DNA of 59,696 nucleotides, the filler included, from Porpidia crustulata (taxonomy: Eukaryota): assembly GCA_964255105.1 (NCBI GenBank). It is 5 parts of 5 records of this genome, joined end to end, with 100 filler letters (N's around TTAATTAATTAA, not from the genome) between each part and the next. Parts side by side here need not be neighbours in the genome. Positions count along the whole stretch, not along the records: positions 23,941 to 35,795 come from CAXUWE010000590.1; 4 more parts are not named here. One strand, given 5' to 3'. The position numbers and the translations under genes are program-made. Within the stretch, counting starts at the first letter, position 1. Every line of letters begins with the position of its first letter. The notes under the pieces were generated by a model. It ran no database searches, was not told the origin of the DNA, and was given only the letters and a program-made list of their open reading frames with translations. Of the stretch, positions 11,883 through 53,308 are shown in pieces.

Positions 11883-11982
11883 NNNNNNNNNNNNNNNNNN
11901 NNNNNNNNNNNNNNNNNNNNNNNNNNTTAATTAATTAANNNNNNNNNNNNNNNNNNNNNNNNNNNNNNNNNNNNNNNNNNNN
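11883..11982. other. Artificial contig linker (N44-TTAATTAATTAA-N44)
   Basis: 100-nt spacer with a core giving stop codons in all six frames; the same spacer occurs four times. Confidence 0.99.
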
Positions 11983-23840: not shown

Positions 23841-23940
23841 NNNNNNNNNNNNNNNNNNNNNNNNNNNNNNNNNNNNNNNNNNNNTTAATTAATTAANNNN
23901 NNNNNNNNNNNNNNNNNNNNNNNNNNNNNNNNNNNNNNNN
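23841..23940. other. Artificial contig linker
   Basis: N44-TTAATTAATTAA-N44. Confidence 0.99.
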
Positions 23941-23989: not shown

Positions 23990-24180
23990 ATGAGCAGAGC
24001 GGTGCGGCAGAGTGGCGGGCAGAGTGGGGGACAGAGTGGTGAACTCAATGCGTCGCTGCGTTCAGTGGGCTGTCTGTCTAGGGGACCGTCTAGTCTAGTG
24101 GGCCGTTCAGTCCAGTGCGTCGTTTAGCTCAATGTGTCGCTGCGTTCAGTGCTTTCCGTTCAATGCGTCGCTCCGTCGAG
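23990..24180. repeat. Short degenerate tandem repeats (CAGAGTGGYGGG-like, then TCAATGCGTCGCTGCGT-like)
   Basis: About 4 CAGAGTGG/CAGAGCGG units, then about 4 copies of TCA(A/G)TGYGTCG... Confidence 0.7.
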
Positions 24181-25150
24181 TTCTTCGTCGAGTTCTTCGT
24201 TGAATTCTTCATTAAGTCTCTCGTCAAGTTTCTTGTTAAGTCTTTCGTCAACTTTCTCGTCAAGTCTCTCGCCAAGTCTCTTGTCAAGTTTCTCGTCAAG
24301 TCTCTCGTCAAGTTCCTCGTTAAGTCCTTCGTCAAGTCCCTCATTCATCTCCCAATTACGCCTGCTATCAAATCTCTCACCAAACTCCTCATCGAGTCTA
24401 CTGTTAAGGTTAATGGCATTACTTATAGCAGGCTTAATGAGAAACTTGAGAGAGAACTTGATGGAGAAACTGATGGCAGGCTTGATGGGGGAATTGATGG
24501 TAGGTCTGATGGGGTGCTGGATGGTGGACTTAACGGGGGACTTGGCAGGAGGCTTGATGGGAGAACTGATGGCAGGTCTCATGGGAGGCTTCTTGGGGGA
24601 AGGGGGTTCAATGGCAGAAGGCGGCTCAATGGGGGAAGGGCACTCAATGGATGAGGGAAAGGAGGTGAATTACGAGGGGGGGCGACTGCGAGAGGAGGTA
24701 GCGAAGTGGGATGTTCACTTTGGGGCAAATGGTTTGTATAGCATCAAATTTGTACACGGCGAAGTGCATTTGTTTCGACATCGAGCTATATGTACGTGAA
24801 AGATTTGCCTTTTCTGTTTGCAAAACGACGAGATTGAGAGCGAGGAAGCTCGAGAATGTAGATATTCAGGAAGTCGTTATTTGTTGCATTCCCTAGGAAA
24901 TCCAGGCTCATGGTCTATTGGATAAGTCAACGGTGTTTCTTCCTCTACATTGTTCCGGGAGGTGTATATAGTATTTTATAGTACAAGCATATGCTAGACA
25001 GTATTTAGGACCGAGGATCTTGAGCAAATATATGGGGAGTTGCGTTCAGAAGGGCAACTTGTTGAGGAGAAAGGCGTCGGAAGGGTTGGATTGACAAATG
25101 AAAGGGCTGAAGTCTGTCCTTTGAATGTCCGGGGCGAAGCCTGCATGGAG
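24160..25150 (-). pseudogene. Possible decayed ORF ending in PIKP and LDEE/LDER tetrapeptide repeats
   Basis: The frame of ORF 24160-24582 can be read upstream for several hundred nt with scattered TAA/TAG/TGA stops. No family recognised. Confidence 0.3.
24170..24600. repeat. 12-bp minisatellite in two oppositely oriented arrays
   Basis: Left array (~24170-24400) has unit ~AAGTCTCTCGTC. Right array (~24430-24600) has unit ~GATGGGAGACTT, close to the reverse complement of the left unit (GACGAGAGACTT). Confidence 0.8.
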
Positions 25151-28100
25151 TCGTAAAGTGTATAGGGATGGTTTGAGTAAGGCAAGAAGATCCGTGTCTG
25201 AGAATACTCAGATGGGTATCTGCTCTGTGATACATATTCAACGGAGCGTCATGCGAGTGTTTGAAGACGGAAGCCTATCTCATCAGACTGCGTGTCGTGC
25301 AAGTCGCAACTAGCGTTTGATATTGGTCCGGAGCGGATCGAAGCCCGTGTTCCATCAGTGGGAGACGCTCACGCGAGGGGTTCATGCAAGATCTGGTCTC
25401 GGGGAAGTCCTGTTCTAGTTCTGGAGCTCGCTCTGTTCGAAGGTATGGGTCCGCGATGCTTTGATGGGCTTTGCCTCTGGATAAGTATTCAGCCTAGCGG
25501 TCTCGCTCATCAGCAGTGGGCGGAGGTTATCAGGGGAAAGTCGGAGGAGTGTCAGAGTCGGTATCATATCCTCTGGATCAGATCGTTAGGTACCAGCTAT
25601 AAATTGAAGGCGTTGATGTGGTCCGGAATGATCTTGTATTCGCACGTTTACGTTCCATTTGACAGAAGAGGGACATCTGGTAGCTCGTCTTCAGAGTATG
25701 GAGATGATAGCCCTGGTCGACAGGAGCTTTCGAGTGCGTCCTTTGGATTCTGAAGGCATTGGAAGCTAGTCCTAGATTATGGCCCAGAGAATGGGAGGTC
25801 AACCAGAGCTCTCTGCGGTTTGCTCTTGGGAGGGGACGGCTTTCTCGTAGAAATCATCCGACTTGTTCTGCAGCCTCTGAGTGGATGTGAGACTAAAGTG
25901 CACTTTAGGAGGAGCGTGCAATCGTTCAAGCGAGTGTACTCAGATGCCTGATAACGTTGGCTACTGATTCGATGTCAGACCAAGAGGTGGTGAGGAGGAA
26001 GCCCGCTTGAGCCCTACAAGGCAGTATTCAGGAGTTCATCCAGATCTAGCGATCCGCAGTCAATGCACGCACGCGTCTCAATTGGAATCCATCACATTGA
26101 TCTTGGGATAAGAGTGGGTCTTCTCGAGATCAGAAAGAGATGACATAACGAACATCTGGTCGTGAGCTTCAGACCTGCAGACCTTCAGACTCACACATCA
26201 CCTCTAGTGTAACAGTGAGCCATTATTGCACTCGATACGCATCTGGCCGATCACCTTGACAATCATCTAGAACTCCAGGTTCAGGATCATTCAGCAGTGA
26301 TGAGAGAACTTAGAGCAATCAAGAGATTTCTGCAATCTGCGCATATTCCGGTGCCAGGTGAAACCCTTACAGTCTACCGAAACGGCAAGGAAATCCAACC
26401 AATATTCTTCGCTTCATTCCAGCGGGGATCAAATTTTTTCACCCTAATTTCCTATGAGGGTTGGCCAACAGCCACAAAGCCTTTTGTGAATTCCACTGAG
26501 GGCCAGCGCAGAGTGCGCGGGTTCTCTATATTATTGACCAATACGAGAGAATTCCTGCTCCAGTGTGCTGCATGCGAGACCCTAGAGTCCCCTGAATTTC
26601 GTAATATCATATGCTGGATCTATCACAATTGTCCAAGGTAGGCACTCTGTGCAGGTGAGCTAATTGTTTCAAGCGCGTTGATCTAATCTTGACGATTGGT
26701 GCTTGCGGCACATGTTGGTGATGATCAGGCACTTCCATTACGAGTTTGGGAGTGTGGTCGGACACAGGATTGACCAGCAGGAGAGCGGATTTAAAATAAT
26801 AATATTATCGATCGATGATACGATAGGAAAGTTCCTTGCGTGTCGCGGATGTCGTGTCACTAGTAAAAATGGACTTCTTAGGTAGGTAGATAGGGAGCGG
26901 GAGATCACCAGGTGTCATTGGCGCGCAGGTGGTGAGAAGGAAATGACGAGGTTGGTATAAGCGTAAGTGTAAGCGGCGATCAAGTATATGAAGGAAGAAA
27001 AGCCGAGATAATTGGCCGCGAAAGGATTTTGGTCAAGGTGTAATAAGTCCTGGTTTTCTCCGGTCAATTCGCTGCCAATCATGAAGCACAGACCATAAGG
27101 TACTCCTGCATCCCGGCTCCCCCCCGCGCACCTGGGAGCAGAAAGGCTTCTCCAACCTGATTCCGTGACTATCACGACTAGGGTATGTGTCCTATCAGCT
27201 GCCCCCTTTACAAAGATGTGAGAGGTCATTTAATAAAAGGACTACGCTTTGAATTTTTAGGACTCGTATGCACGGTGGCAAGGAGGAATCCCCGCCATCC
27301 AGCTGCCTGATTCCGCAGACGGCGGAAGAATAATCTCCACAACAATGCAGGGAAGTCTCCTTTGAGATTTTGACTGCCATGAAACGCGGGAGCATACTGA
27401 TCAATGGCGGTCAATCCGGTGGCTACCATCTTCGAAAGCTGACACTGCCTAGTGCCTGTACTGCTCATATGCCTCACGGCGAAATATTGTGGTAAAATAC
27501 ACGGTATCGAGATAATAAGATACTGTACGGTATTGCAGCATCTATTCTAGGGCAACGGTGAAGCCCTTTTCTCAATCTTCTCCAGAACCCTTGGTCTGGC
27601 GATCTGTCCGAGTGTTTCCTCTGCGATGCCGTTGATGAAAGAAAGCTAATGATTCACTGTCTTGCAAGATCGCGGTAAGCCGTATTGTAAATGATATATA
27701 GCGGGCAATAGTCGGCTCGTCTACTACCTATGATGTTTGCCCAAAATTCGGACGAAGCCGGCGGCTGAGGCTGGGGAGCGAACGTGGACTTACCCGCAGA
27801 CTAGACACGCTAATCCTAAAGAGTCGAAGCCCCAGCCGATTTAACCCTATGGAGTGCAGACCATTCTCTCTTTTAACTCATCAAATTACACAACTGCATT
27901 TCTGAAATCATTCACTCACATAAATTGACTGCACTCCAAATTCTAGCACTTGTAACTGTACGACGATGTTCATTGCTCGATCTCATGTCTTAGAAATTCA
28001 ATGATGGGTTGGAGATCAGTGTCGCTTTTTTTGGCCCCCGCGCTTTGAGGTAAACCGGTCGCTAAGCTCTTTGTAGTTTGGAACCGATCTTGTCTGAAAT

Positions 28101-28234: not shown

Positions 28235-30906
28235 TTAGAATCTGTTCATGCATTTCACACCGGCCCTAACACACTTGTAGCATGGGAGTTCAGAGGCTTT
28301 CCGAACGCATTTCGCTCTAATTTGTCGACATCTACGACACGCTTTCGGCAGCGTCGAGCTGTCAAGCTGTTGCTGGGTTAGGGCGTCATCGGCGGGGTGA
28401 AGGTAGGGTGATGGCGAGCCTTTAAGACCTACGACTTTAGTTCCTGATGCTGGTGAGAAACTCCCAAGTCTTCGGCGCACAGGCGTTTCGAGGGACACTG
28501 GCTTTGTAACTTCAATAGCTCCAGCGCAATTCAGGAAAGCTGGCTTTCTGATGGGGTCGTCACCCCATGAGACTGCATCAGGAAATTTCCCAGTGCGAGG
28601 AATGATAATCTCGTAGGTAATCCGTGGGTAATCGAAAGATATTCGGACTTCGTACTCCATTCGCAGGTAAAACTTGTTGGTTCTTTTGTTTCGGACCTTT
28701 TCAAAGGGTCCTCGATCAATGTCAGAAAGATCCATGTGGAGCTTCCCTATCACTGCTATGTCTTTCGCTCACTTCAGTACTGTCCGAGATATATGGCAGC
28801 CAACTCACCATTGCTAGGGTCATGGACTGCTAGGTGATCTCGCTTTTCCTTATGGGAACCATATAACGTCTCTTCTATCTTGATAGGTTCTTTCAGCCAG
28901 GCGCCGCGCCAACCCCGCAGAGTCCTCACGCAACCTCTTTCTATCTTTTCGTCCTGGCTCAAGTCAGTCCAATGTTGCAGCAGCAGCCTGTTCTGTGTAA
29001 GTCCAGATATACCAGTTTGAACAGCCAGTTTATACGATCCTGAACGCTTCTCACGCCATCGTGTTGATCAATTGTTGGTTTAGCGTCACCGTGTATATCT
29101 TCAATGTACTGCTCATCCCATGCTGTCCCAAAACTACGGCGAAGATATCTCTCCGTAATTGCATCTTTATGCATTGCTCTGAGAATTGCTCCATCAGATA
29201 CAATTGAAGCGCTGAAAGGACAATCATTAGTGGCCTGTCATTCCACGAAGTGGCTTCACTTACGAGTTTCCTTTCGGTGTTATGAGGTCGATCGGATAGC
29301 CCATACGAGGTGGTGTGCCCGTACCGAATACTTGATTCAACGAAAACCAAATGTGCTTATTTCCGCTCAATCCTCCCACGAAGATAATTCTCTAGAAGCG
29401 GATCAATGTGAGTATACTCCCTAGAACCAACTCAAAGTTACCTTTATTTTTTGACCAGACGTACTCGAGTATTTCTTGTTGAAGCTTCTGATTTGTTTTT
29501 CGATCATGGAGATGATTTGATCAAGGGTTTTGCGGAAAACCTCTCGAATATGAATACTGTTGATCCTCAGCATCTCTACACCAGGGTGTGACGACCTTAT
29601 ATACGTACCTGGACAACTGGACACGGTTTGAAAGGATTGCTTTCGATGGGGTTGGTATTAGACCAGGTATATGTATGCTCATGTTCTTATCTCTGGCAGC
29701 ATCTGAAAACCCGTTAAATTCCTTTTTAGCATTTTCGAAACTTGCACAAGCTATGTCCAGGATCTTGTTTGTGTGCTCTGTTGTGTTTGGCATTCCCAGA
29801 TGTTGTAGGAAGGTTGGCATCAAATCTTTGGTGTACGTGGTAAAAAATTGTCGAAAATTGTCGTTCAATAACGCAGAGCCACATAGACAGCCTGGAAATC
29901 AGATCAGCTTAACGTTCAGTCATCCGAACAGTGCCACAGACCATCGCCACGGACGCCTTCTCTCATTCTAAGTATTGAGCTATTCGTATCAACCATGTAG
30001 GTGATGAAATCCTAAGCAGCACGTATCAGTGAAAGTTGTCTATGTTTGTGCATAGCATCTCGACATACACCGGTTCCACCTCCAATGTCCGCAACTAAGA
30101 AGGGATCATAGAGCTTTCGAGATTAGTCCTAATCTCCATAATCGGATAGCTTGATCAAATCGACTCACATAGGGTTTTTTGCTTTGATTTGCCTCAATAG
30201 TATGTCGAAGTAACAACGCCTCTTCCTGTTCTTTTTCGCGAAGATAGAACGCAGCCGCAGCCTCGGATTCGGAAACAATGTCAGGGTTTGGGAGACCTGC
30301 TATCTCTGCTGCAGTCACCATTGTCTGGTTTATCTCGGGTGTCCACATAGCAGGAACGCAAAGTACGCACTGAACATCCGAAGTGCTATATATTTCCTCG
30401 CTAGCTGATGTACCGTAGGTCTTGACTATCTCGTCCTTTGCGAAACCGTAGAGGCGAGCTAAGAAAATACTTATAAGGTCCTCAATCAGAGGGGTTCTTG
30501 GCTCGTTATCTGTCCTCCAAGAGCCTGGTGGAATCCTCGAAAGTTGGGCTGTGTGCTTTGCTCGAATGTCTTCTGTTGCAGGAGATTTCTCAAGACCAAG
30601 TTTCAGCAATACAATGCGATCTTCCTCCGGAATTTCTCCGTCACTAATATGACTATCGACAGATTCACCCCACACAAAATCTTGGAACTCGGAATGCCAG
30701 GCAATCTGGGTCTTGACTTGGTTTTCCGAAAAGCCCGATTGTCCGAAACGCACGGGCTCTAGCTTAATGTCATTAAGGGCAGTCGTTGACGGCTGTTGAG
30801 AAGAACTCCATTCTTGGAGAGCAAATGAAACGGCAGCATAAGTTGTTCCATAATCGATACCGAGGATCAATTTCCTAATGATCTGTGGGTTATTTGCTTC
30901 GTCCAT
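28235..30906 (-). CDS. Non-canonical Hsp70 (HSPA12-like actin-fold ATPase) with a C-terminal Zn(II)2Cys6 cluster, ~9 exons
   Basis: Motifs LGIDYGTTYAAVS, VLCVPAMW, VSESEAAA, VADIGGGTGD, CGSALLNDNF, IIFVGGLSGN, IVSDGA and YLRMEYEVRISFD. The terminal exon continues without a stop to CRRCRQIRAKCVRKASELPCYKCVRAGVKC. The GT-AG junctions I checked are in phase. Confidence 0.88.
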
Positions 30907-31377
30907 CTTGTGCACCTTCAACGTCTTTTGGGGACCGAAAAAAAAGAAGCAAGAGAGCGTAATAGCAATTTAGATGACTATACACAGCTCCTGGCGGGAA
31001 CGGGAAGACTTAACTTCGGTGTGTCAGGTCTAGAGTTTGGACAGGGGGGAACTGGATTTTCCAGGGAAGCTAATCTCCTTGAATAAGTGTTTTTCGAGAC
31101 CCTTTCCATACTTTACAAGGGGGAGATATACCAACTAAGTTTGTAAAATACAACATACGGTTTACTAATAAATATTTCAACTACCAAGTATGCACACCCG
31201 ACCCCTCTACTCCTCAAAATATTCTAAGTCGCGTTCGCACTAATTCAAAAATAAAGACTGGGTATTCCTCAATATCTGCATCAGGTCTTGTTTCTTCTTC
31301 GATCCTCTATATTCACAAGGCGTCGCGCGATAAAGTACTACAAAGCACGACATTGGCGCTCAAGGATACGGCTCGCA

Positions 31378-33070
31378 ATGCATCTTTGGACCGATGCAAT
31401 GGTAGAGGCTGCTTTAGAATTTCTTAGACTGAACAAAGGCTCTGGCGGGCTCTTCGAAACTAACAACCGCGAAGCACTGGAACAGGCAAAGAACTTCGTG
31501 ATGCAACAATGTCCCGGAGTAAACATCACTATTTGTCAACTAAGATCCAAGTATCATGCCTTGTGGAGGACCTGGCGTAAAGAGGATCTTCCAGGTGGCG
31601 GCTCCATCTACCGGTTAGGCCCTGATGCCCTTAAGTCGATTCACAGGCGACAAACTGTATCCATCTCAGATCGCCTCAGTGGGAGGAAAGCTGCGATTTC
31701 TGCGCGGAATTGTGTCCCAATCAAACACCATCGACAATTGCGAGCGCGAGCCATCGACTACACTGAAATGTCGCCGATGACCGATGATTCTGGAAGGTAA
31801 ATTCTTTCTCCAATGCCCTAGGCTTGAGGACAGCAGTATTGATTTGGCTATTTCCAGAGATGTGGCCAAGTGTGATACATCCGATGTCCCTCAACCAAAT
31901 ACAAATAAATCTGGCATTATTGTTCTTGTTCAAGAATGTGAGACGACTAGACGGCAAGCATCCTTGAGCTCCACATATACCTCATCTTCGCCACTTACGG
32001 AAATGAGTCCGATGCAGCCCGAGATTTCCCAAGAAGGCTGTGGCAAGACTGGAGGTGGAGGCAGATTCGCAGCGGGATCTAGTAGGTCAGAATTCGATGT
32101 AATCCTGTCGTACACTAAGTTCTATGAAGGTACCCAAACTAGAAGCTGGGCAACGGTGAATGATCGTCTGTTTGGAAACTCAGAAGTGTGTTTACCAACC
32201 CGAGATGATCTGGAATACTTGCAAGGGATCACGATGAAAGAGATATTGTTCTCTGTTTACGCCCTTCTTGAGTCTACGGCCACGGCATACGAGGGGACTC
32301 AAGAGATACATACGTCAGTCGCTTGCTTGCCGTTCTTTGAAATTTGCAAAACCGTTTACGGCGTAGGCAATAAAGCCGATCTATTGATCATTTTCGGGGA
32401 TTTGCAGTTCCAAAGTCCAATTTCTTTGGGAGTTTTTCTACGTGCTCTGATCGGCGCTGCTGTATATGAATGGGTATTCGACGGCTGTCATGATTCTCCT
32501 CTGAATGACCTTGACAGTCGAACAGGGATACCAGCAAGATTCATGAGCGAGATCGAGAAGCGTGAGTGGCCTCTTACAGCTATACATATATGAACTCTGA
32601 TTCTAATACGAGCATCGAATGCAGGGCATCCCGAAGAGTATAAGGATGTACTTCGGCAAAGCAAACACGGCTTCATGAAGGAGGAGCTTGATCTTGATTT
32701 CATTGCTGGAGAGCTTGCGACCCGTCTCACGCACGCTCTAGGCCCATTCCTGAATAAACATCTTGTCAACACGACCAACCTCGAGAGTCTCAGAGCGTGG
32801 CGCAAAGACTTGCACAAGGTTTTCGTTTCTGCCATTAACCTCAAGAAGGCAGTACTGCTGAGCGATAACAAGTTCACATTTCTATGGCCTAGCGCAGGTG
32901 AATGTTCCAACCATAGGACGATGAAGACAGACAACGGGAGCTACGTTGAGCGTGACCGAAAGGTACGCATTGGATTGTTTCCAGCTTTGCTCCCGGCATG
33001 GGAACCGAGTACAACCTTAGATCGGTCCAGGGAAAGAAGTGTATTTCCAGCCATTGTCACACTGCAGTGA
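31378..33070 (+). CDS. Hypothetical protein: N-terminal Myb/SANT-like domain plus C-terminal helical/GrpE-like domain, probably 3 exons
   Basis: N-terminus WTDAMVEAALEFL...ITICQLRSKYHALWRTWRK. C-terminal part LRALIGAAVYEWVF...FLWPSAG...VRIGLFPAL...RSVFPAIVTLQ*. Intron 32562-32623 is canonical. The first junction needs a very short intron (31797-31833/31836). Confidence 0.7.
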
Positions 33071-33894
33071 TAAGGTGTCTCTACCCCTTACTAGTCTTGG
33101 CTCGCTGGTAATATAGATGAGGTAGATTTCGAGTCTCTGGCTTCTAGGATGTTTGATTTGCCGTAACGGCGGGGGCCTAGAGCTGTGTGCTGATGTTATG
33201 ATGGGTCTTACATGGGGTTCGTGCACGTCAATTAGCTGGGCTAACAAACGATACATCGGTCCAAACCCAAGAGTCGGCACCTCAGGTGCAGTACATAGGT
33301 GTCCTCAACTAAGTATCGGCAGGCCGCTGCATGAAGATCCCAGTCTAGCAGTATGAGTCAACGGGTTTATTGCTGGAATGCCGTACACCCCTTGATCCAG
33401 ACACCGGGACTTCCATCTAAATTCAGCGATCCAATCAGGGCGAGCAGGTCATTTGTCATTTGTAGGTGGTCTTCATGCACAAGCCCGCAGCAACCATCCA
33501 CGATGCTCCGTTACATTGCCCCTGTAATTTGTCGATACAGGAGTAGTTAAGCCGGACGTGGAGATCGACCGGAGGGATACGAGCTGAAAGAATGCTTCGT
33601 GTCGAGCAAGGTCTGTCGCGCACCCATGAAAATCAATGCCAAAGCGCTACCGTGAGACCCTGCTGCCCGTTAGCTTCTGGGCCGGCTGGTGCAGTGGAGG
33701 TGATTTTGGTCGGAGTCTACCGCACAACAGACAGCCTCTGATAAAAATGATCTCGGTTATGTCGAAAATGCACACTCCCAATCCTCCGTGCCGAAATTCT
33801 CGTGCTATAAAAGCTCGTTCCTCGATCCTTCTCCATTGCCATTCCATTCGATTCACTTCACGCTGCATCCAACCGAATACCCACTCCCATTACC

Positions 33895-34593
33895 ATGACA
33901 GCTAGAGATTCAAGGGAGATCATGGACCAATTTGCAGTATTCTGTCAAGCTCTTGGAAATTATGTACAAATAAGACTCGCTTCAGTAGACACAGCGGCGG
34001 TTGAGGGGTTTGATACTCTGATAGCTACCGTCATTGTAAGCGTCTCGAACTCCCACTCGTTCATCGAGCTGATTCTGTTAAATCTTTCTCAGCAAGCTCT
34101 CAATGAGTGGCTGGAAGAGAAGATCTTTCATGCGAGATCAGAGATATCAAATCAAGCGGGTCGGTCCTCGGACGACAGCTCATCCAGCAGTCACTAGGGA
34201 TACAACGCATCGAGTTGTATCTATTCCAAAAGGTATCTTTCTATCCTTTGGTGTCCGTATTCTCTCGAGACTGCTGATCACGATAGGATTAGACATTATG
34301 CCTGTACACGGCCCACAAACGCCATGAAGGCCTCCAGGCGCCTGAACGACACGCTTCCACTACCTCTTCCTCGCCGACTAAGACATTTCAGGGCGTACGC
34401 AGCGCATTCTTTTGAGAAAGATCGATTTTGCGGAGGAAGAAGGAAGGCGGTTTGGAGGAAGTGGATGAACGGCGACTGGCTTGCACGACGCTTAACAAAA
34501 GTTTTGATATATTTTGATAGAAGATGTACAATAAGTGCAATAAATCTCTTTACCAAAGAATATAAACGTGCCGCTCTCACGCGTAAAGACTGA
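33895..34593 (+). pseudogene. Three-exon hypothetical gene with one in-frame TAG (or a short two-exon gene ending at 34197)
   Basis: Introns 34036-34092 and 34233-34286 splice ORF 33895-34197 in frame to ORF 34324-34593. The only interruption is TAG at 34195-34197. Confidence 0.45.
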
Positions 34594-35795
34594 AGAACTG
34601 AAGCCTTTTCTATACTCTACGTGCTAAAGAAAGAAATGCTCCAAGGTGAGCAACGTGGCTCTTTGAGAAAGATCCGGAACCTACCAAAATGCCTGTGAGT
34701 GGTTCATCCCTCACGACGATGACTCGTACCTCATACCACTCGCCCGAAAGGAGCCCCGACACTTGGAAACCCAATCTTTGAATGGTACAAGCGAATAGGT
34801 ACTTGAACAACCTTATCATTCAAAAGTCGCCTCGAAGCTGACCAGTCACTGCCGCGAATTGGAATCACGAGAGGAAACATTGGACACGAAGACTTGAATA
34901 GCTCACCTCGTTCATTACCTCTCAACCCGCATTGCTCATAGATCAGCTTCATCAACTCCCTCTGCACCGTCTCAGAATCTCCTGGCCCAGCTTCCGGAAA
35001 GAGTCAGAATAGTATCGCCTGGTAGGTCACTGGGTCTTTGCCCTCTATCTATTACTGACGCACCTCCAACAAATGGCTCTTCACGCACGCACGTTCCAGA
35101 GCTACCTACTTCTCACGGAACAAAGATCCGCCAGGACGAGAAATGGTTCTGGAATAATAATATGACGAAGCTGCAAAGCCCAGGGTATCTGAGCTCGAGA
35201 AAGAATGCAACAGACGAACGAACGACGCGGCTGACTATTTCAATTCCAAATCGAATCGACAAAAGCGGACTGTGTTTTTCTACTTCCCAAAGAAATATCG
35301 CGTCCCGCTTTATATGCAAGTCAAAAACTTACTATATGCCATCCCTAAGACAAAGGGTAGAGTAAATTCCCATGAAACGGAAGGAAACGCTGATGTTGGA
35401 CCTCCGTCTTGACAGTTGGCGGCTGGTGGTTTCGACCTGGAGGATGGTTGTTCCGATCCGGAGCGCGCGAAGATCAGAAGCCCACCACTCCCTCCTGTTG
35501 GCATACCAGGTATGAATTTGATGGCATTGATGTTGTTGTTGTTGTTGCTGGGAGGAGGGCTATCTCGGAGGTGAAAAGGAGAAAGGAAACTTTCTTCTAG
35601 CGTCTCCAGCCCCATGTGGCGGAGATTGCCAATAAACCCCCCCCCCTGAATTCCAACACCTCCCCTTGACTATATGAATGGACGAATGACATCTAAACAA
35701 ATATGAAATCGTAAAATCGAGTCTGTATATTATTAAATATAAGTGTTGAGATATATGATGGGCTGACTTAGGGTGAAAAGGGTTGTGGATTGAGT

Positions 35796-35895
35796 NNNNN
35801 NNNNNNNNNNNNNNNNNNNNNNNNNNNNNNNNNNNNNNNTTAATTAATTAANNNNNNNNNNNNNNNNNNNNNNNNNNNNNNNNNNNNNNNNNNNN
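35796..35895. other. Artificial contig linker
   Basis: N44-TTAATTAATTAA-N44. Confidence 0.99.
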
Positions 35896-41852: not shown

Positions 41853-44050
41853 ATGGCAGGCTCTGTAGATGGTAGCTCGGACAATGATCAAGACGGGCAG
41901 CTAGACGATCTGGATGTGGACGGGGATGGTGATCAGGAAGGTGACGGCGACGGCGATGCTGAAAACGATGACGAAAATGAGGAGAACGAGGATGAATATG
42001 ATGAGCCAGATCGGGAAGATTCGCAGGATCCATTTGGTGATCAGTCGAACCGGGGCCTGACCAAGCCGGCAGCAACCTCTCAAGGGTCTCTACTTAGCAG
42101 CCGATCTGGATCCACCCAAGACTCTAATAGTTTTGGGGGGCCTGTCTTATCCGCTCCGACGTCGCATCCAAAACCGACGGTCCTTTTAACCGCGGCATCA
42201 CCTACGCCCATCTCCTCGGCTCCAAACATTCCGACGATTGAGACCCCGAAAATAAGGCCGGAAGTATTGACCGCTTCTGTCTACGATATTGTACCCACAA
42301 TCGCCGCACCACATTCCACTTCTATAAACTCGATAACAGCGACCCCCGATCTGCGCTGGGTCTTTAGTGGAGGTGCCGATGGCTATATCAGAAAATTCAA
42401 CTGGGTAGAGACGGCCAATGGCAAAGCTATGCTCACTGTGGCGCAACGGCATCCTTTCGTTGACAGTGTGACAAAGGCTGGCGTACTTATGAGTTATTGG
42501 GAAAATGAGGACACCAGTGGTGAGTAACGTTACATCGTCTAGAAACCATTAGCTAATAATGGTGGAGCGATAGTGAAGCCAAACAGTGGCGAAGATGGTC
42601 CTACACTCTCATCTGTGTATTCACTTGCCGTACAGCATGAAGGTTTGTGGCTTTTATCCGGACTCGAATCTGGTGGCATCAACTTGCAATCGATTCGTCA
42701 CGAGGAAGGTAAATTGATCGCCTGCCTTCGTAAGCATAAGTCAGCTGTATCCGTTTTAAAGCTTGCCCAAGATGAGCAATCGCTGTTGTCAGGAAGTTGG
42801 GACAAAAGCGTTGTTGACTGGGACTTGAACACGGGCCAGTTGAAGCGCACCTTTGAAGGGAGCGGAGGTCAGATCTCCGCGCTCGAGGTTCGACCCTTTT
42901 CCAATCTACCAGTACCTGAGGCCTCCGGTGATGTGGTTGTGGCCAGCAGCACTTTTACTGTCTCTGACAAGCCTCGTCCCAACGGCGTCCTAACAAATGG
43001 CGCCGATTATGATGGGAAGATCGATCCTCAGTCTACAGAGAATGGCATTTCTAATGAAGCGGGATCTCCTACGGACTCGTTATTCGGTGGTAATGGAGCT
43101 GACTCACTCTTCGGTGATAATGAAGATGCTGAGGCCGGGGCACCCTTAGGGGGCGACTTCGTTGTTGACGACGACGAAGATGACTTCTCTCGAGCAGTTG
43201 CTAATGGCATTCAAGAGCAGGATCATGAAGACGCAGAGGGTGATGTAGACATGGTTGATGCAGCTCAAATCCCCATTGTTCCATTAGCGAACGGAGGTGT
43301 CACAGATCCATCCGTCTTAGAGTCAGCGCCCTCAGATAGCCAAACACTGTCACCTAATCAAGCTTCTGAAAGCACGCTTAATGGGTTGCACTCTATTGAG
43401 CACGCATCGCATCCTTCCCACGAGGCTCTTTCAGCAACTCAAGCTCAAGATAACTCTACGGTAGCGCCTTCGGATGTCCCTTCAACTGCTGAATCGACAT
43501 TCCTCGCTGCTTCGAGAGACGGTAGCCTACGTGTATGGGACAAGCGCCAATCGACGCCAATCGCTAAAATTCTACCCCGAAATGTTCCCCCATGGTGCAT
43601 GAACGCCTGTTGGTCACCTGATGGAAATTATATCTATGCTGGTCGCCGAAATGGTACAGTGGAGGAATATAGCCTCCACAAAGGCTTAAAGGGTGTCGAA
43701 CGAAGCTTGAAGTTGCCCAATGGCAGCGGACCTGTCAGCGCAGTCCGAGCTATGCCAAATGGTCGACATCTAATATGGTGAGCTATGAAAGATCCTGTCC
43801 AAGACCTACAATACTAACATTTGGAAGCGCATCTTATGACATTTTAAGACTTTACGATTTAGAACAGCAGCAGACATTCAAACATTCTACGGTTCCATTC
43901 CTTATTGTGCCTGGCCATCGTACTGGCGTTGTCTCTCAACTGTATATTGATCCAAGCTGTAGGTATATGATCTCCACTGCCGGCAATCGTGGATGGGAAG
44001 GAAACTCAACAGAGGTTCTGTTGGGTTATGAGATTGGCGTTGGAAAATGA
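41853..44050 (+). CDS. SPT8: SAGA complex WD40 subunit Spt8, 3 exons
   Basis: Acidic N-terminus; YDIVPTIAAPHSTSIN, FSGGADGYIRKFNW, LTVAQRHPFVDSVTKAG, PPWCMNACWS, AGRRNGTVEEY and VPFLIVPGHRTG. Confidence 0.96.
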
Positions 44051-44907
44051 AGATTATCTGGATGTAACATGACCGACTTGGAGATGTTGGTGCGGGAACA
44101 GCGAATCTTGCTGGATCGTGAAGGGTTTGATTCTCGAGATTTAATACGCATTATATCCCATGATTTGGTTAGATATTTCGAAGGGAGTATAGAGGTAAAT
44201 TCTTAATTCGACATGGTTGAAACTGCAAGAACACTGACTTCATGCGGAATATTCTCTCTTGACGAGATCCTATTGCGATGCACTGGATGAACGCAGTCAA
44301 TGTCGTTACTCTCCCCTTTTGATTTGCATGTCCAACTAGACATCCAGTTGTGACGGTAATTGATGGTGGAAAAATCCAGCGCCGTAGCGTTGCGACTTCT
44401 TGTTTAGGACCCTTGACCTCTTGCGAAGTGTCCCATATTGATTCCGGTGTAAGAAAAACCTCCAAGTACTTCCAGATCCATGCCTTCCATGTGGAGGGAG
44501 CCCAAGACTTCATTTTCTCGCGAGGACTTCAATATAGCTACCGCATTCTATCTCCAGCTCGAAAACGGTCGATAAATCGGTCTCAGACAATTAGACCCGT
44601 CCTCATCAAGCTTGAATCTTCCAATAACCATGACAGATTAAGTCAATAAATAACTTGCAAAGTTCATGCTTTTGGTAAGATTGCTCAGCTCGAAGTCATT
44701 CTTAACCGCTGCTCTGATTGCCTTGATGCGTTTTGAAGGTATGTCTCCAAATGAAGGACAATTATTTTGCTGATCCGGCTCAACACTGACATATACGGCA
44801 GTGGCGATCATTTACATATTTTCCTGCGCTTCTAGATAAACAGTCACCGCCACAATCGCTCTTGACTATAAGCACTCTCGCCTCTAGCTCATCGCGAATC
44901 GCCCACA

Positions 44908-47212
44908 ATGCCCAAACTACGTGATGTTACTGTCAGCGTTACAGATGAGAAGGGGAGCAGTCTTGAAGAATGGGGCGTCCAGATCTTAAGAAGCCAGAAC
45001 AAAGTCTCCGCATACATCAGGTCAACCACCGACACACCTTTCAGAGTTTCCATTCAACCGTTGATCCCGTACATTACCCCTGATGTACCACCTGCGAAAC
45101 AATCATCTTCAAAGCGAACTCGATCCAACTCTATTGGTGAGGTTTTGCATAGACGCAGTGAGCCGCATTATACCCACAAAGAGAAAAGCGTCGTCCTCTC
45201 ATCTCCACCCCGACCATGGGACCGCCAAACCTCATCCCCTCCACCCGACTTTGATTTCCTTGCATGTCTCTATATCGACGGTCGTCAAAAACCGGAGCGT
45301 AAACTTATTGTCTACCTCGACCCGAGCCATTCCGAGTTTGCGGCTCCAGATGGCAAAGTTAAATTTACATCACGTTGTGTGGAGGGTCGTGACGGTAGCT
45401 TGAAAACGCATGCTTGGGTTTTTAAAGATGTTGGAGTAGAATCTTCGTTTGAGAAGATGAATATATCCGGAGCTGAGCAGGCGGCGAAAGATTTTGACGA
45501 ACCTATTGAAGACCGTCTTGCTAGAGGACTTCAGTCAACCGCTCTGACTGGAGAAGGAGGTACTAGTACACAAGATACGGCCAAATTCGGACAAATCGTT
45601 GTCACCCTCCACAAGGTTAGGCTCGGAAATGTTATAGTCGATGCAAATTATCGTTTCAAGCACAGGGAAGGCGATAAAGATGATTGTGAAATAGATGGAA
45701 TTGACAGAGGTGTTACACACACTACCAAGTAAGCTGACATACACTGGTCTACTCAATATTCTAGCCGCTGACTGTCATAGACTCACACATATAAAGACCT
45801 TATCACGCGCGCCAGCGAGTCTCATAAGTTACGAATTCTATGATCGTAAGGTGGATGTTTTCGCTACGTTCCAATTTTTTTACAGAAGCCAACGTGAGTA
45901 CATACAAGATGGTCCGACAAATAGACTTCTCTAATGAAGGTGGACAGAAAGCCTCGAGAAATTCAACTTCCCTAATTTTCCTCGAAAACTACCCAGAGCG
46001 TACACCACAAATTCGGGGCGTCTAAACACGGAACTCTTCAACAAGACAACACCTCTGAGCATTTCCCGTGGATTGCATAGTCACACAAAGAGACCAAAGC
46101 CTAGGGGCAAAGCTTTCGAAGAAAATGTGCGGGACCAGGATTTCGAAGCCTTCAAACCCAGGTACGAATCTACTGATGGATACCGCGATCCAGCAGTCAT
46201 GGCAAAGGGAGAGAGAACATTACGAGTTTCCAGCAGGGCCCGGCCATTGACTCTTCAGCCGCAAAAAGATGGCGACGACTCTCAAACCATGTGTGAACGA
46301 AGACCGTCTCGGTTCGCTAAATGGAAGGAGCTAAGCTCCAACGAAAAGGAAATGAGAGAGGATCGCTCAACGACGCCGTCATCTGCCTCAAGCACCGATT
46401 CTATCTGCAGCATAATTGAGATGTCATATACAAAACAAGTCACAGGATCTCCCTATTCCCCGCCTGAGTTGATGAGAGAACACATGGATGCAACTTCAAT
46501 ACTACCAGATCAACCGTGCTCTCCAATAAACTGTGGTCTAAAGTCCAACAAGGGCGATTTACCCACAAGCCTTCGCCTACGCAACGATCATCGCCTCCTG
46601 ATGCCTACTGCCCCACCACCTGGGAAGCTTCAACCTCCCACGATACACCCAATAGCCTCGTCTTCCTCAGAGCCACACACAACCTCAACAAGTCTTGCCG
46701 TCCAGAGCAAACAGCCCGGTAATGCCACTTACCGCAAGACCGGTCAGACCAGCGACGCCGACGACGAACGCGAAGACTCGGATCCCGACGACGACGAACA
46801 AGCCGACGACAACAAGGAAAACGAAGATCCCGATGACCCGAATGATTTCTTGAGCGCGGACAAGGACGACGAGGGGTTGCGCGGACGATTGCAGGCGGTG
46901 CAGATCGGTGCTAGGAAGCGGGCCCTTGATGATGATGACGACAAGGATGACGAGGATCGTGAGGAGACCGTAAGAGGAACTACAGAGACTGGGGCGGGAA
47001 GCACGGAGGATGAACAGATGAACGGGTCTACGGATACAGTCTTGCGAGGCAGTAGAGGGATGAGAAACGAGCTTGTTGAGGGGGACGTGAAGCCGCTTGA
47101 GGAGATGAGTCGGCCGAAGAGGGTGAAGATTATGGCGGAGGATGTTGCGGTGGAGGTGGTGGTGGAGCCAATAACGGACGAACCGATGGCGGAAACGGCG
47201 CAAGGGTTATAA
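44908..47212 (+). CDS. Fungal hypothetical protein (N-terminal beta-rich domain resembling DUF7918-type proteins; disordered acidic C-terminus), 3 exons
   Basis: LEEWG...VSAYIRSTTDTPFRVSI, ACLYIDG, GQIVVTLHKV and FATFQFFYRS. GT-AG introns near 45729-45780 and 45894-45947. The family assignment is from memory. Confidence 0.75.
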
Positions 47213-47748
47213 TTGTAGCAGGGTCGATAAGGGAACGAACCTGCAAGGATGGGCGAGCCGAGCAATAAGTAGTCGCATCTTCTTTTGCTCATAGCAGCGA
47301 TCTCGAGAGAGGCGATGTGGCTGCGAAGAAGACGAGGCGGTTGATTATGGTTCGTAGAGTTGGGATTGTTTTTTTTCGTTGGGGGGGTCTGAGCTATTCG
47401 TCATGGAGGTCGTTACTCGCACGGGATCCGATTTTTCTTTTTTTTCTTCCATGGATGGAATTTGTGAGGATGAATGATGAACGAACGCATGAGTGGGTGG
47501 GTGATGGGTGATGGTGGATTGATAGGTCTACTCTAGCCGAAAGAGCATGCATGCAATTCAGAGAAGTTTTTCTTCTTTCGCGTGGGAGTTTGGAGTGGTG
47601 GTTTGAGGTTACGTCTTTGGGGTTTCTAAGTGATGTGAGTGTGTGTGTTTTGGGATGTTGAGATTTCTGGAGCCATCTACTGCCATATCCCTTGCCCTCT
47701 TCTTTCTACTTCCTCAGCCCATCACGTTCCTCGCCCTTCCCCCTCAAC

Positions 47749-47848
47749 NNNNNNNNNNNNNNNNNNNNNNNNNNNNNNNNNNNNNNNNNNNNTTAATTAA
47801 TTAANNNNNNNNNNNNNNNNNNNNNNNNNNNNNNNNNNNNNNNNNNNN
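47749..47848. other. Artificial contig linker
   Basis: N44-TTAATTAATTAA-N44. Confidence 0.99.
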
Positions 47849-47896
47849 GGGCGAGGAGGCGGGATTGGTGGGTGGGTTGCAAAAGGTTCTATGGAA

Positions 47897-50800
47897 TCAT
47901 TGGCGACGTAATGGTTGGAGCGAGGGTATTGCCCGGGCGCCATCGTCGTCTTCGTCCATCAAGCCGTTCGAGCCGGAAAGATCGCCAGTGGCTCTTCGGG
48001 GAGGAAGACGCGGCCCATCGTTTTCATCACTCGGTGAGCCTTTCTGCTGGTGCCGATTGCCTGTCGGCTGAGACGCTGGGAATTTCTTATTGGACTCGGG
48101 CATCGATATCGTGCCCGTATTTCGGCGAGGTGGTGGAGGCAGAATCACTGTTTTCTCTCGACTCGCCAGAGTACTCCGACGAGCTAGCACGCTGCTGCCA
48201 TCGATACTGCTAATCGACGCTTCCCGGCTATTTGGCTTGGAGAGAAGCATAGGCTTCTTGGGAACCGGAGGCGCTGGTTTTCGGGTGACTGTCGATGCCG
48301 ACGACGCTGCTGAAGCTAGGCTGGGAGTTCTAGACTTTTGCCCTGGAGTAACCGTTGTTGTCTGACCACCCTTATGGCTGTTGTCGAAAGGGATCTTCAC
48401 ACTGGGATCAAATGGTGGCGTAAGCATGCGCGAAGCTTCCAATGGTACTGCTTTGGGTGCGTTTCGACGTATGTGTAGATCTGCTGAGGTATGAGTAGTT
48501 ATAGGTTTGGGTACTACAACCCAATCTGGTTCACTGGCGGGGGTGAAAGGATTAGAAGGCCTTGAGGTATTAGGGATGGAGAGTTCCTCGGGAGGCCCAA
48601 CATTGGATCGAACCGGAAGACCTTTAATGCCATGTCAGAAAATTTTCTTCTGTCATCGTAGACTTTGTAGATTTCATACCATTATCCAACCACCACTTGC
48701 GGCGGTCCGAACTCGCAGGAGGCAGTCCAGGTGCTATAGAATCATATCCTATTAGATCCTCATCTTCGTTCTCGCCGTTCCTCGCATTGGCGGTTATCTC
48801 TCCCACATCGGCTCTCCGTTTCGCGTAAATTTCCTGGCTCAAGCTCTTCTTCAAATCCTCATCGATCGCACTTAGTGTACATTGGAAAGTAGCATACACT
48901 GGTCTGTGGTCGGAGAAGCGGAGTGGCGCCGTTGTGTAATTGATTTGCTTCAAATTGTCGCCTTTCTTGAGTACTCGATCACACCATGCTGGGATTCGGG
49001 CTTTCTCGCTGAACCGCATTAGCAAGACATATCTCGAAAGAGTAAAAGATTATTGACTTACGAACTATCATAATCATCTGTCCCGTTGTCGTATTTGTAT
49101 GTTGGTAGAAACGTGATGCGGGCCTCTGAATAGAAAGGAAATGTTCTGCCTGCTACCATCTGCAGATTCAACTGATCGATTCATTAGCAATAGAAAGACG
49201 CAGATATCTACATAGCTCTCACTTGATCATTCTGATAGAGTTTCTCGAGATCACCGGCATCGATCAGCCGGCGTACCTTATCATCACTCAGTCCAATTCG
49301 ATAATTGAAGTCTCCAAACCATATAATCGTATCATGGTCATCGATGGACCGCTTCCGCTGGAAGCGCAGACCACTATTGATATCCATGATCGTTCGATAA
49401 TCTCGATTTCTTTCTTCATAGTTGGCGAAGCCAGCCGCTAGATGCGCCGTTACGAAACAAATGCGAGTATTGGCATAATCCATTCTGATTGCCACAGCCC
49501 CTTTATTGCCTGCCATTCCCGACATCCCTGTCTTCACTGCATCAGTTTTCGAAATCGTACAAGGTCGCACCAAGAGAGATCACCTTTTTCACACTACCTT
49601 CAACGTTTTTGATGGTTGATAAGGCACTCGCTTTGACGAAGATCATAAGTGCAGCTCCAACAAGCTGCCCACTTCTTAGAAGTACGTACTCTTCTGTGGA
49701 ATGTTTTCGCGCGTTCACGTTTAATGTCTGTCTAACCGCCTGTTCCCACGCCTGACGCCTCACTGGATCTGTAGACATAATCTGCTGAGGGCTAAGCTCA
49801 ACAATCTCCTGAAATCCTACCGCAACGATCTCAGGGTACCGTTGAAGACTGTTCAATTGCGGGCACAGCCATACGGTAAGATCTTCTTTGACACCGTATC
49901 CTTTGCCATTCAAATTGAAGGTGCCCACGAATATTTGTATGACTTGGGACGCTGAGTATTCGTTGAGTCTGTTGAATTATTAATCTGTGGTCAAGCTTGA
50001 CAATCTGCTGATGTACCTTTTTTTGAGTTCGGTATTGACATAATCATTGATGGGATCATACAAATGCACAGGCGACTGCTCCATTAGACGCCCCTAGATA
50101 TAGCTCGTTAGCTGGCTCCCGAGGCCAAGAAATGTTGAGCATCTCACTAGAAGCATATCGATAGTGTTTTGTCTCCCTTTATCCGCAAAGTTATTTATGT
50201 ACATGCGGGTTGCACTTTTTCGAGCATCCGCAATAGCGCCAGCCAAAGACATTTTCCCATGTCTCGTGAATGAAGACTTCAAGGCTCCAGTGCCAGCATA
50301 TATTTTTGACAGTGCCTGGCATTTTGTTAGAAAGCTGCGGAGTGGGGCTAGGTACTGTTTCTCACATCTCCGTTGTCAGCCCAGAGACTAGAGTGTCTCA
50401 TCCATAAGTCTGCGGAAGCATGCTTGCTGCGATGGTTGAGAAAGGATTCGAAGGCCATCTGGCTGATGATTGTCTGTATAAGATTAGTCCGGTCGAGACA
50501 GTCCAAGCAATTCGTCCGGAACACCCCTTCCTGTTGTAATGCAAATGTAGGGCCGGTTTGCAAAGCCTTATCGATAGGAGCAGTTTCTGGACCAGACAAT
50601 CCAGCCTCGTCGCTCAGAAAATACGCGAAACTTTCTGCACGATCTTGAATGAGGCGCCGCACCAAACTTGCGGCTTCGTATCCACCGGGTCCTTTTGTTT
50701 CAGCGTGGAAGTCAAAGTGAGACTCTTGCAGTTCGTGGTGATCTGATGCTTCTTCAACGTCAAGGGCCTGGTTCAAAGGACTATGTGCAATATGATATTT

Positions 50801-52056: not shown

Positions 52057-52484
52057 GATCAAAACTTAAGATCATGGTCTGCTCAATTGGAATTTCGTGA
52101 AGGATTCGAATCGTCAAATGCTGAATCGGGTAACCCACCGCTACTTATGGTTTGCTGCCACAAGTTGCCTTTTGGACTGCGGCTTGCCCGAGAAACAGCT
52201 CAAAGTTCACAAAGATTCACATTAAGATTCGATGCATTCAATTCACATCAATATTCAGTCTACTAGGTAAATACTAATAAGTAATTCTTGAGTTCACAGC
52301 CCGACAAATTGCAATTAATATAAGCTAGATACCATGCATCATATAAATGATATTTCTACTTCTCAGAGAGTCTCTGACCGAAGTGTAAGGAAGCTGTAGA
52401 CAGTAGCCAGCCCCTGCGTTGCCAGACATCTTCTCTTGAGCCTCATGATGCTTGCTCGTAGGGCAGCAGTATGAGAGGTCGGGC

Positions 52485-53085: not shown

Positions 53086-53308
53086 GATCCCCTAATCTCC
53101 CAAGGTTCTTCGACGTAGGTTGGCGGCAATTGCAGACGTTGCTGTAGAGTTTTGGTTCAGCGCTGACGAAGGTGGACGGGCGCGAAACTAGTGGATATTT
53201 AGCCGAGGCCCGCGAAATCTGAATCACTCCGAGCAACATATTATCTACTCTATCACGATTGGTGTCCAAGGACCTTTCCCCGCGTGAACGAACTTGAAGC
53301 AGAATACG

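What the first reader, a model, noticed from the sequence alone, without database searches (positions are those of the whole stretch)
28235..28753. GAL4-type Zn2Cys6 cluster at the C-terminus of an Hsp70-family protein
Seen: the last exon carries the HSPA12-type terminal strands (FYLRMEYEVRISFD), a Pro/Ser linker, and then CRRC-RQIRAK-C-VRKASELP-CYKC-VRAGVK-C (28339-28250). This is an exact C-x2-C-x6-C-x8-C-x2-C-x6-C pattern with no stop or intron in between, and no EEVD tail. Established: Zn2Cys6 domains usually lie at the N-terminus of transcription factors. Fusion to an Hsp70 ATPase is unusual.
Basis: partly seen in the sequence, partly recalled or inferred. Interest (0 to 1): 0.75.

Follow-up and report, generated by a model that had tools for sequence, protein, structure and literature searches.

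The report
Hsp70-like ATPase with zinc-cluster tail
A fungal gene joins an unusual Hsp70-type ATPase to a transcription-factor-type zinc cluster, the join is kept in many related fungal sequences, and the neighbouring partner gene may also carry a DNA-binding fold, which suggests a chaperone-like motor aimed at DNA.

Summary
Confirmed. A clean 9-exon, 747-aa gene (minus strand, 30906-28235) encodes a divergent Hsp70 ATPase domain, a non-canonical beta domain, a disordered linker and a terminal C-x2-C-x6-C-x8-C-x2-C-x6-C cluster. The fusion is conserved: 15 of 17 other last-exon homologues carry all six cysteines. A full orthologue (L014, 58% identical, same eight introns) shows constraint on the cluster (dN/dS about 0.3) but little on the linker (about 0.7). 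The cluster models onto Leu3/Gal4/Pho7 but is atypical: it lies below Pfam's cut-off here, has an altered recognition helix and has no dimer helix. Some close relatives lack it. The gene sits head-to-head with a 522-aa partner, also kept in L014, whose N-terminus models weakly as a Myb/SANT-like helix-turn-helix. The scan had already noted such Hsp70-like/partner pairs on other fungal DNA; my look-ups found no note of the zinc-cluster fusion, and nine literature searches found no description. Best reading: a nucleotide-gated, DNA-tethered Hsp70-like module of probably lichen-associated ascomycetes. Expression, zinc binding, DNA binding and partner binding are all untested. New variant of a known kind.

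The parts
28235..30906 (-). Hsp70-like gene, 9 exons (30906-30169, 30113-30069, 30011-29942, 29891-29609, 29556-29442, 29391-29264, 29211-29013, 28953-28809, 28755-28235), 747 aa
   Evidence: co-linear with P0001/P0002 at 44-45% over aa 12-666/691; same 8 intron positions and phases in L014
29150..30906 (-). Divergent Hsp70 nucleotide-binding domain (about aa 1-480, exons 1-7; end approximate); phosphate-1, connect-1, phosphate-2, adenosine and connect-2 type motifs present
   Evidence: motif scan (motif names recalled); Pfam HSP70 21.1 bits on exon 1; profile of 41 relatives hits DnaK/Hsc70 NBD at E 1.9e-26
28499..28755 (-). Last-exon part of the non-canonical C-terminal beta domain (aa 575-660; the domain starts in exons 7-8)
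   Evidence: predicted strands, pLDDT 63-88; no HSP70 Pfam match; 78% mean identity of a 36-residue block among 12 close clusters
28340..28498 (-). Disordered Pro/Ser-rich linker (aa 661-713)
   Evidence: pLDDT under 50; 26% identity and dN/dS about 0.74 against L014
28250..28339 (-). Zn2Cys6-type cluster, C-x2-C-x6-C-x8-C-x2-C-x6-C, ending 4 residues before the stop
30907..31377 (.). 471-bp spacer between the two start codons, candidate bidirectional promoter (532 bp in L014)
   Evidence: promoter function inferred
31378..33070 (+). Head-to-head partner gene, 3 exons (31378-31796, 31858-32561, 32625-33070), 522 aa, no Pfam or NCBIfam family
   Evidence: gene model; L014 partner 554 aa with two corresponding introns, 26-46% identity by region
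31378..31602 (+). Partner N-terminal three-helix domain, candidate Myb/SANT-like helix-turn-helix
   Evidence: model pLDDT 71; best rows GT-1 trihelix, ARR1 GARP, telobox Myb, Zeste, homeodomains, Z at most 6.2: suggestive only
32625..33070 (+). Partner C-terminal domain, the most conserved part (46%); belongs to unnamed Ascomycota clusters; GrpE/MIEAP-likeness is a lead only

Best explanation
The gene encodes one real protein: an atypical Hsp70-fold ATPase whose usual substrate-binding domain is replaced by a different beta domain and which carries a Zn2Cys6 cluster on a flexible linker. SHOWN: gene structure, Hsp70 NBD, conserved cysteines under purifying selection, and a conserved head-to-head partner gene. 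PREDICTED: Gal4/Leu3-like fold of the cluster; helix-turn-helix fold at the partner's N-terminus. INFERRED: the cluster binds two Zn ions and tethers the ATPase to DNA or chromatin. The protein stops 2-4 residues after the sixth Cys and has no dimer helix, so affinity would come from the basic linker and from assembly with the co-transcribed partner, whose helix-turn-helix would be a second DNA contact. The ATP/ADP cycle of the Hsp70 domain, probably set by the partner's C-terminal domain, would switch the complex on and off. It would work like a nucleotide-gated, two-subunit DNA-binding regulator, at sites that need not be CGG.
For: 15 of 17 other hits of the last-exon profile have all six Cys directly after the same beta domain. 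One record ends inside the motif and one lacks it. All 12 clusters with a window-like beta domain, the window's own included, carry it. The tail is 86-87 residues in the 11 clusters other than the window's, and 12 of 12 members of the largest cluster have the motif. Against L014: cluster 58% identical, dN 0.30/dS 0.94; linker 26%, dN 0.74/dS 1.0. Non-Cys positions average 49% identity against 26% in the linker. Net charge of the cluster is +4 to +10 in 16 of 16. The model superposes on Leu3, Gal4, Pho7, Put3 and Ppr1 at rmsd 1.3-1.8 A over 32-38 columns, Foldseek probability 0.90-1.0 for these crystal-structure rows. Three of 15 homologues pass Pfam's Zn_clus cut-off. The partner is kept head-to-head in L014 while the short flanks give no match. 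A second, N-terminal and canonical Zn2Cys6 (37.8 bits) sits on a related NBD fragment, P0028. Precedents: monomeric clusters such as AlcR, Pho7 and AflR (PMC12501005, passages); human HSPA12B as a nuclear coactivator (PMC7526558, abstract).
Against: The window's cluster scores below the Pfam cut-off (19.6 against 21), it was not among 87 Zn_clus matches in its own genome, and 4 of 15 homologues give no Zn_clus hit. The position four after Cys2 is Lys in 33 of 43 ordinary clusters of this genome but Lys 7, Arg 5, Gly 4 of 16 here. The position three after Cys2 is Arg/Lys in 32 of 43 against 4 of 16. Close relatives lack the cluster: P0001 (45% identical, basic tail only) and P0166. Of the 21 hits that cover the beta domain, 3 have it, 2 have a partial CxxC and 16 have none. 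Both profile searches contained the Cys tail, so they favour carriers. Foldseek E-values are 0.27 or worse, and VIA Z is at most 3.0 for zinc-cluster chains. The partner's helix-turn-helix call rests on a two-sequence model, Z at most 6.2, with no Pfam match. GrpE-likeness of the partner gave no sequence signal. The dN/dS values come from one pair, with near-saturated dS and only 36 codons for the cluster. Pair conservation rests on one other locus. The spacer showed no inverted-CGG site in the window.
Confidence: 0.5

Rival explanations
1. The fusion is real, but the cluster has been co-opted as a protein-contact, zinc/redox-sensing or general nucleic-acid-binding and nuclear-import tail. It has no sequence-specific DNA binding, and the protein remains a chaperone-like ATPase with a private cofactor.
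For: Altered recognition positions. All 16 clusters have Val/Ile then Arg/Lys/Pro after Cys3, against 0 of 43 ordinary clusters, and an 8-residue loop in 16 of 16 against 3 of 43: a specialised variant. Relatives make do with basic low-complexity tails (P0001, P0009, P0142, P0166). No dimer helix.
Against: The strong positive charge and Arg/Lys four after Cys2 in 12 of 16 fit DNA contact. The partner's N-terminus also models as a DNA-binding fold. A canonical cluster occurs on P0028.
Confidence: 0.28
2. The pair is a defence or self/non-self module in which transcription-factor-like domains act as integrated baits for antagonist effectors, and the Hsp70-fold ATPase is the switch (by analogy with integrated domains of plant immune receptors; recalled).
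For: Both genes seem to carry transcription-factor-like domains. Tails vary widely among relatives and a cluster occurs at either end. The short flanks are not shared with L014. The rest of contig C590 holds repeats and ORFs of no family.
Against: The cluster shows purifying rather than diversifying selection. Only one copy of this clade and one partner match were found in the genome. No effector domain such as a nuclease or pore-former was found.
Confidence: 0.15
3. The cluster is an accidental read-through into a relic of a transcription-factor gene, or is removed from the mature transcript, and has no function.
For: Below Pfam's cut-off; absent from P0001 and P0166.
Against: Open frame, near-fixed tail length and six invariant Cys across 12 clusters whose linkers share only 26% identity; the stop lies 2-4 residues after Cys6 in 16 of 16. 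dN is below dS in the cluster.
Confidence: 0.05

Closest known systems
Zn2Cys6 binuclear-cluster factors (PF00172; Leu3 2ER8, Gal4 1D66, Pho7 6E33, Put3 1ZME, Ppr1 1PYI)
   Same: Cys spacing within the family pattern (PMC12501005 passage); predicted fold at rmsd 1.3-1.8 A; basic surface
   Different: At the extreme C-terminus of an ATPase; no dimer coil and no Pfam match to any other transcription-factor domain; altered recognition helix and fixed 8-residue loop
Ume6 (C-terminal Zn2Cys6 cluster)
   Same: Cluster at the C-terminus (title of Anderson et al. 1995 seen in the reference list of PMC2447501; paper not read)
   Different: Ume6 has no ATPase domain (recalled)
HSPA12A/B-type atypical Hsp70 and fungal look-alikes
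   Same: Divergent but recognisable ATP-binding domain, substrate-binding domain replaced, no TPR-binding tail (PMC2266713 passages); HSPA12B acts as a nuclear coactivator with YAP/TEAD4 (PMC7526558 abstract)
   Different: No DNA-binding domain of their own is known to me (recalled); orthology to animal HSPA12 was not tested; the fungal paralogues L006 and L008 are distant
Canonical and atypical ascomycete Hsp70 subfamilies SSA/SSB/KAR/SSC/SSE/SSZ/LHS
   Same: Hsp70 NBD
   Different: No SBD match, no EEVD. The survey PMC3879978 lists seven subfamilies, and its main text has 0 occurrences of 'zinc' or 'HSPA12' (passages)
Fungal Hsp70-like/partner head-to-head pairs noted earlier in this scan; DnaK-GrpE
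   Same: Head-to-head arrangement with an unnamed partner; nearest named Atlas clusters for the partner tail are GIL1/IRKI_C 0.82 and MIEAP 0.79 (lead only)
   Different: The listed notes mention no Zn2Cys6 tail or N-terminal helix-turn-helix; GrpE similarity was not detected here

Membership tests
Zn2Cys6 cluster domain (PF00172) | C-x2-C-x6-C-x5-12-C-x2-C-x6-8-C | tested here: met
   16 of 16 clusters examined; pattern from PMC12501005
Zn2Cys6 cluster domain (PF00172) | Profile score over the curated cut-off | tested here: inconclusive
   window 19.6 against 21 bits, E 0.00098; 3 of 15 homologues pass, 8 hit below the cut-off, 4 do not hit
Zn2Cys6 cluster domain (PF00172) | Two-helix binuclear fold | tested here: met
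   prediction only: block pLDDT 83-84 over most of the cluster; the top five Foldseek rows are Leu3 and Gal4, E not significant
Zn2Cys6 cluster domain (PF00172) | Basic CGG-reading residues after Cys2 (role of the Gal4 Lys17/Lys18 positions recalled) | tested here: inconclusive
   position +4 is Arg in the window, Lys 7 / Arg 5 / Gly 4 of 16; position +3 mostly non-basic
Zn2Cys6 cluster domain (PF00172) | Binds two Zn ions and DNA | not testable with these tools
   needs biochemistry
Gal4-type transcription factor (whole architecture) | N-terminal cluster followed by linker and dimer coil | tested here: not met
   protein ends 2-4 residues after Cys6 in 16 of 16; upstream lies an Hsp70 fold
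Hsp70 superfamily | Actin-fold NBD with phosphate-1, phosphate-2, adenosine and connect motifs | tested here: met
   profile of 41 relatives against DnaK E 1.9e-26 (the window protein itself was not in that alignment, its 45% relative P0001 was)
Canonical Hsp70 (DnaK/SSA type) | SBD-beta plus helical lid, EEVD tail | tested here: not met
   profile match stops at position about 417 of 594 even against full-length chains; no HSP70 hit on the last exons; no EEVD
HSPA12-like Hsp70 | Divergent NBD with substituted SBD | tested here: met
   compared with the description in PMC2266713
HSPA12-like Hsp70 | Grouping with animal HSPA12 in a tree or profile | not tested
GrpE (partner C-terminus) | Sequence/profile similarity to GrpE | tested here: inconclusive
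   hhalign probability 0.1; GrpE HMM score matched by 29 and 78 of 300 shuffles; shallow alignments; Atlas MIEAP 0.79
GrpE (partner C-terminus) | Dimer fold and nucleotide exchange on the Hsp70 | not tested
   no model or complex prediction was obtained
Myb/SANT-like helix-turn-helix (partner N-terminus) | Three-helix fold with conserved Trp residues | tested here: inconclusive
   Trp4 and Trp63 shared with L014; about three quarters of the 50 VIA rows are helix-turn-helix DNA-binding domains by their titles, but Z is at most 6.2; Foldseek GT-1 TM 0.54, E 3.7; no Pfam match

The most novel reading that the evidence does not exclude
A fungal lineage has turned an orphan Hsp70/cofactor gene pair into an ATP-gated, two-subunit sequence-specific DNA-binding machine. 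The Hsp70-fold subunit reads DNA through its own Zn2Cys6 cluster and the partner through a Myb/SANT-like domain. This would make it an Hsp70 that is itself a transcription or chromatin factor, and give a direct handle on what this Hsp70 branch does.
Probability: 0.3. Interest if true: 0.85.

Novelty: new variant of a known kind. Interest (0 to 1): 0.62.

Why it matters
Hsp70s are known to reach chromatin through transcription factors; an Hsp70-fold ATPase with a built-in, conserved DNA-binding-type domain is an architecture I found no description of (paper searches). The fungal Hsp70-like/partner pairs have no known job. A clade in which one, and perhaps both, members carry a DNA-binding fold points to the nucleus and makes the question testable with a 40-residue domain (SELEX, EMSA) and a two-protein pull-down. 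The fusion is easy to miss: the cluster often scores under Pfam's cut-off, and the carriers found are last-exon fragments, unnamed or called hypothetical.

Tried and rejected
No RNA holder listed; the one DNA run may be the source.
A single-sequence search with the last exon among longer proteins found nothing (0 of 324 candidates), and exon 1 found only P0001 (1 of 1616), so no annotated full-length carrier was seen.
Atlas: no usable hit for the last exon.
Viral contigs: no relative.
PDB by sequence: the cluster's best hits, Leu3 and Cdc37, are at E 0.5; P0001 alone has no significant hit.
The beta domain has no clear fold match (Z at most 3.3); this does not show a new fold.
The PF12776 search of the own genome was blank with a blank control; PF27033, precomputed for P0001, is not in the library here, so its name is unknown.
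GrpE tests were negative but weak.
Single origin of the tail: trees on about 85 columns leave the deep order open (50 rows, 30 rows after dropping duplicates and long branches). One clade is not rejected (p-AU 0.37) and not shown. Profile cross-scores between the two carrier subclades overlap with ordinary clusters, though the shared loop signature favours one origin.
No shared CGG pattern in the two spacers.
No complex prediction was obtained, so binding between the two proteins is open.
Scan look-ups for the fusion were empty.
Supplements of PMC5415576 (fungal transcription-factor tables) were not opened and could list such an architecture; its main text has 0 occurrences of 'hsp70'.
Rejected: assembly chimera (L014 has the same structure); intron in the linker (open, near-fixed length in all close clusters); metallothionein (E 0.17).

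Full report
Observation. The window is a string of contigs of a 22.9-Mb fungal genome joined by N spacers; the finding lies on contig C590. On the minus strand a gene of 9 exons runs from 30906 to 28235, with eight GT-AG introns of 50-59 nt and one open frame of 747 codons. The motif is at 28339-28250 (aa 714-743), four residues before the stop. It is the only such match in the six frames, and 50 shuffles gave none. Pfam finds Zn_clus at 19.6 bits (cut-off 21) and HSP70 at 21.1 bits on exon 1. The spliced model aligns co-linearly with P0001/P0002 at 44-45%, which checks the exon calls.

The Hsp70 part. Phosphate, connect and adenosine-type motifs are present in the window protein, L014 and P0001 (motif names recalled). 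A profile of 41 mostly full-length relatives hits DnaK and Hsc70 at E 1.9e-26, but only over positions 8-417 of 594, also against full-length chains. So the ATPase domain is Hsp70-type and the C-terminal beta domain is not a recognisable SBD; there is no EEVD. This is the anatomy described for human HSPA12 (PMC2266713, passages), but kinship to HSPA12 was not tested. Named relatives are Polycauliona, Cirrosporium, Psora, Bacidia, cf. Caloplaca, Rusavskia, Ikaeria and Mycoblastus, mostly lichen-forming fungi (recalled). None of the named ones carries the full cluster, so the carriers' taxonomy is inferred.

Conservation of the fusion. A profile search listed its best 150 of 1960 hits. Three of them, P0013, P0022 and P0139, had the same beta domain, linker and terminal six Cys; one, P0028, had a canonical cluster in front of a related NBD fragment. 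A second search with the last-exon alignment gave 18 hits, one the window's own protein. Of the other 17, 15 have the whole motif, one record ends inside it and one (P0166) lacks it. Cluster members agree: 12 of 12, 3 of 3, 3 of 3 and 2 of 2. Both profiles contained the tail, which favours carriers, but tail-less beta domains were still found. Of 21 hits covering the beta domain, 16 have no Cys tail and 2 a partial one. Among the 12 clusters whose beta domain is window-like, none lacks it. The closest full-length database protein, P0001, ends in a basic tail without Cys. One metagenome locus, L014 (JAABUO010017664.1, same cluster as P0156), holds a whole orthologue: 738 aa, 58% identical, with eight introns at the same positions and phases. 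Pairwise dN/dS is 0.31/1.8 for the NBD, 0.20/1.9 for the beta domain, 0.74/1.0 for the linker and 0.30/0.94 for the cluster (one pair, dS near saturation, 36 codons). Block identities among the 12 close clusters are 78% (beta), 26% (linker) and 59% (cluster; 49% without Cys). The fusion is therefore old and selected.

What kind of cluster. The model of the last exon has a beta domain, an unstructured linker and a two-helix cluster. Foldseek's top five rows are Leu3 and Gal4, followed by Pho7, Put3, Hap1 and Ppr1; E-values are not significant for so small a domain, and VIA Z is at most 3.0 for these chains. Against 43 ordinary clusters sampled from 87 in the same genome, the 16 fused ones differ in four ways: an 8-residue central loop (16 of 16 against 3 of 43); Val/Ile then Arg/Lys/Pro after Cys3 (16 of 16 against 0 of 43); Lys four after Cys2 (7 of 16, with Arg 5 and Gly 4, against 33 of 43); and a basic residue three after Cys2 (4 of 16 against 32 of 43). 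All end 2-4 residues after Cys6, so there is no dimer coil. Monomeric binding has precedent in AlcR, Pho7 and AflR (PMC12501005, passages), and a C-terminal position in Ume6 (title only). The shared signature favours one origin; trees neither show nor reject it.

The partner. 471 bp upstream, on the plus strand, starts a three-exon gene of 522 aa. L014 has the same head-to-head gene (554 aa, two corresponding introns, 26-46% identity by region), while its flanks of about 1.3 and 1 kb match nothing on this contig. It has no Pfam or NCBIfam family. Its tail falls in unnamed Ascomycota clusters (0.95), with GIL1/IRKI_C and MIEAP as weak named neighbours. Eight earlier scan notes describe such pairs in other fungi and propose a GrpE-like cofactor; my sequence tests of that gave no signal. 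Its first 75 residues model as three helices (pLDDT 71, two sequences). The best rows are GT-1 trihelix and TEAD4 by Foldseek (E 3.7) and ARR1, a telobox Myb, Zeste and homeodomains by VIA (Z 6.2-5.8). The class is consistent, but the scores are below the level the tool calls reliable.

How it most likely works. Shown: one conserved polypeptide with an Hsp70 ATPase and a selected six-Cys module, beside a conserved partner. Predicted: both carry DNA-binding folds. Inferred: co-transcription from the spacer, complex formation, DNA or chromatin binding through two weak contacts, and switching by the nucleotide state of the Hsp70 domain (0.5). Human HSPA12B acting as a nuclear coactivator (PMC7526558, abstract) is a loose analogy only. 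Rivals: a co-opted protein-contact or import tail (0.28), baits of a defence module (0.15), a functionless relic (0.05). Expression, metal binding, DNA binding and partner binding were not tested.

Novelty. Nine paper searches (listings only, except the six papers named in this report) showed no Hsp70-Zn2Cys6 fusion; the library lacks most subscription journals. PMC3879978 (passages) and PMC5415576 (passages) do not mention it in their main text; supplements were not seen. Scan look-ups for the fusion were empty. Both domains are known and the gene pair was noted before in the scan, so this is a new variant of a known kind, interest 0.62. The boldest open reading, an Hsp70 that is itself an ATP-gated DNA-binding regulator, gets probability 0.3.

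Noticed in passing
P0028 (375 aa, JGI/IMG, contig up to 4762 bp): A canonical N-terminal Zn2Cys6 (37.8 bits) lies in frame before an NBD fragment of the same Hsp70 subfamily (36% to the window protein): a possible second, independent fusion. DNA not seen.
   Followed up: partly
P0059, P0036: Relatives named from Polycauliona and Rusavskia have long charged tails (201 and 179 residues) with partial Cys motifs, possibly decayed or different metal sites.
   Followed up: no
window 23994-24650: Run of 12-, 18-, 24- and 36-bp tandem arrays at the start of contig C590, open in several frames, no Pfam match; possibly part of a repeat element or a low-complexity exon.
   Followed up: partly
window 25265-27500 and 33811-35362: The rest of contig C590 holds only short ORFs with no significant Pfam match among those scanned, unlike the housekeeping genes on neighbouring contigs.
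   Followed up: partly
window 11883-11982, 23841-23940, 35796-35895, 47749-47848: N spacers join separate contigs, so gene order across them is not established.
   Followed up: yes
L008 (G000:C1619) and L006 (G000:C1282): Two distant Hsp70-like paralogues of similar atypical type in the same genome; the partner-tail search matched only C590.
   Followed up: partly
window 1-22144 and 42543-59347: Ordinary genes by Pfam: PLP decarboxylase, NOP9, zinc-type dehydrogenases, beta-lactamase-family protein, DUF92, Git3 receptor, UCH peptidase, SPT8, SacI-domain phosphatase, G-patch protein; a weak Zn_clus match at 8418-8495; a weak DUF7918 match at 44872-45729.
   Followed up: partly
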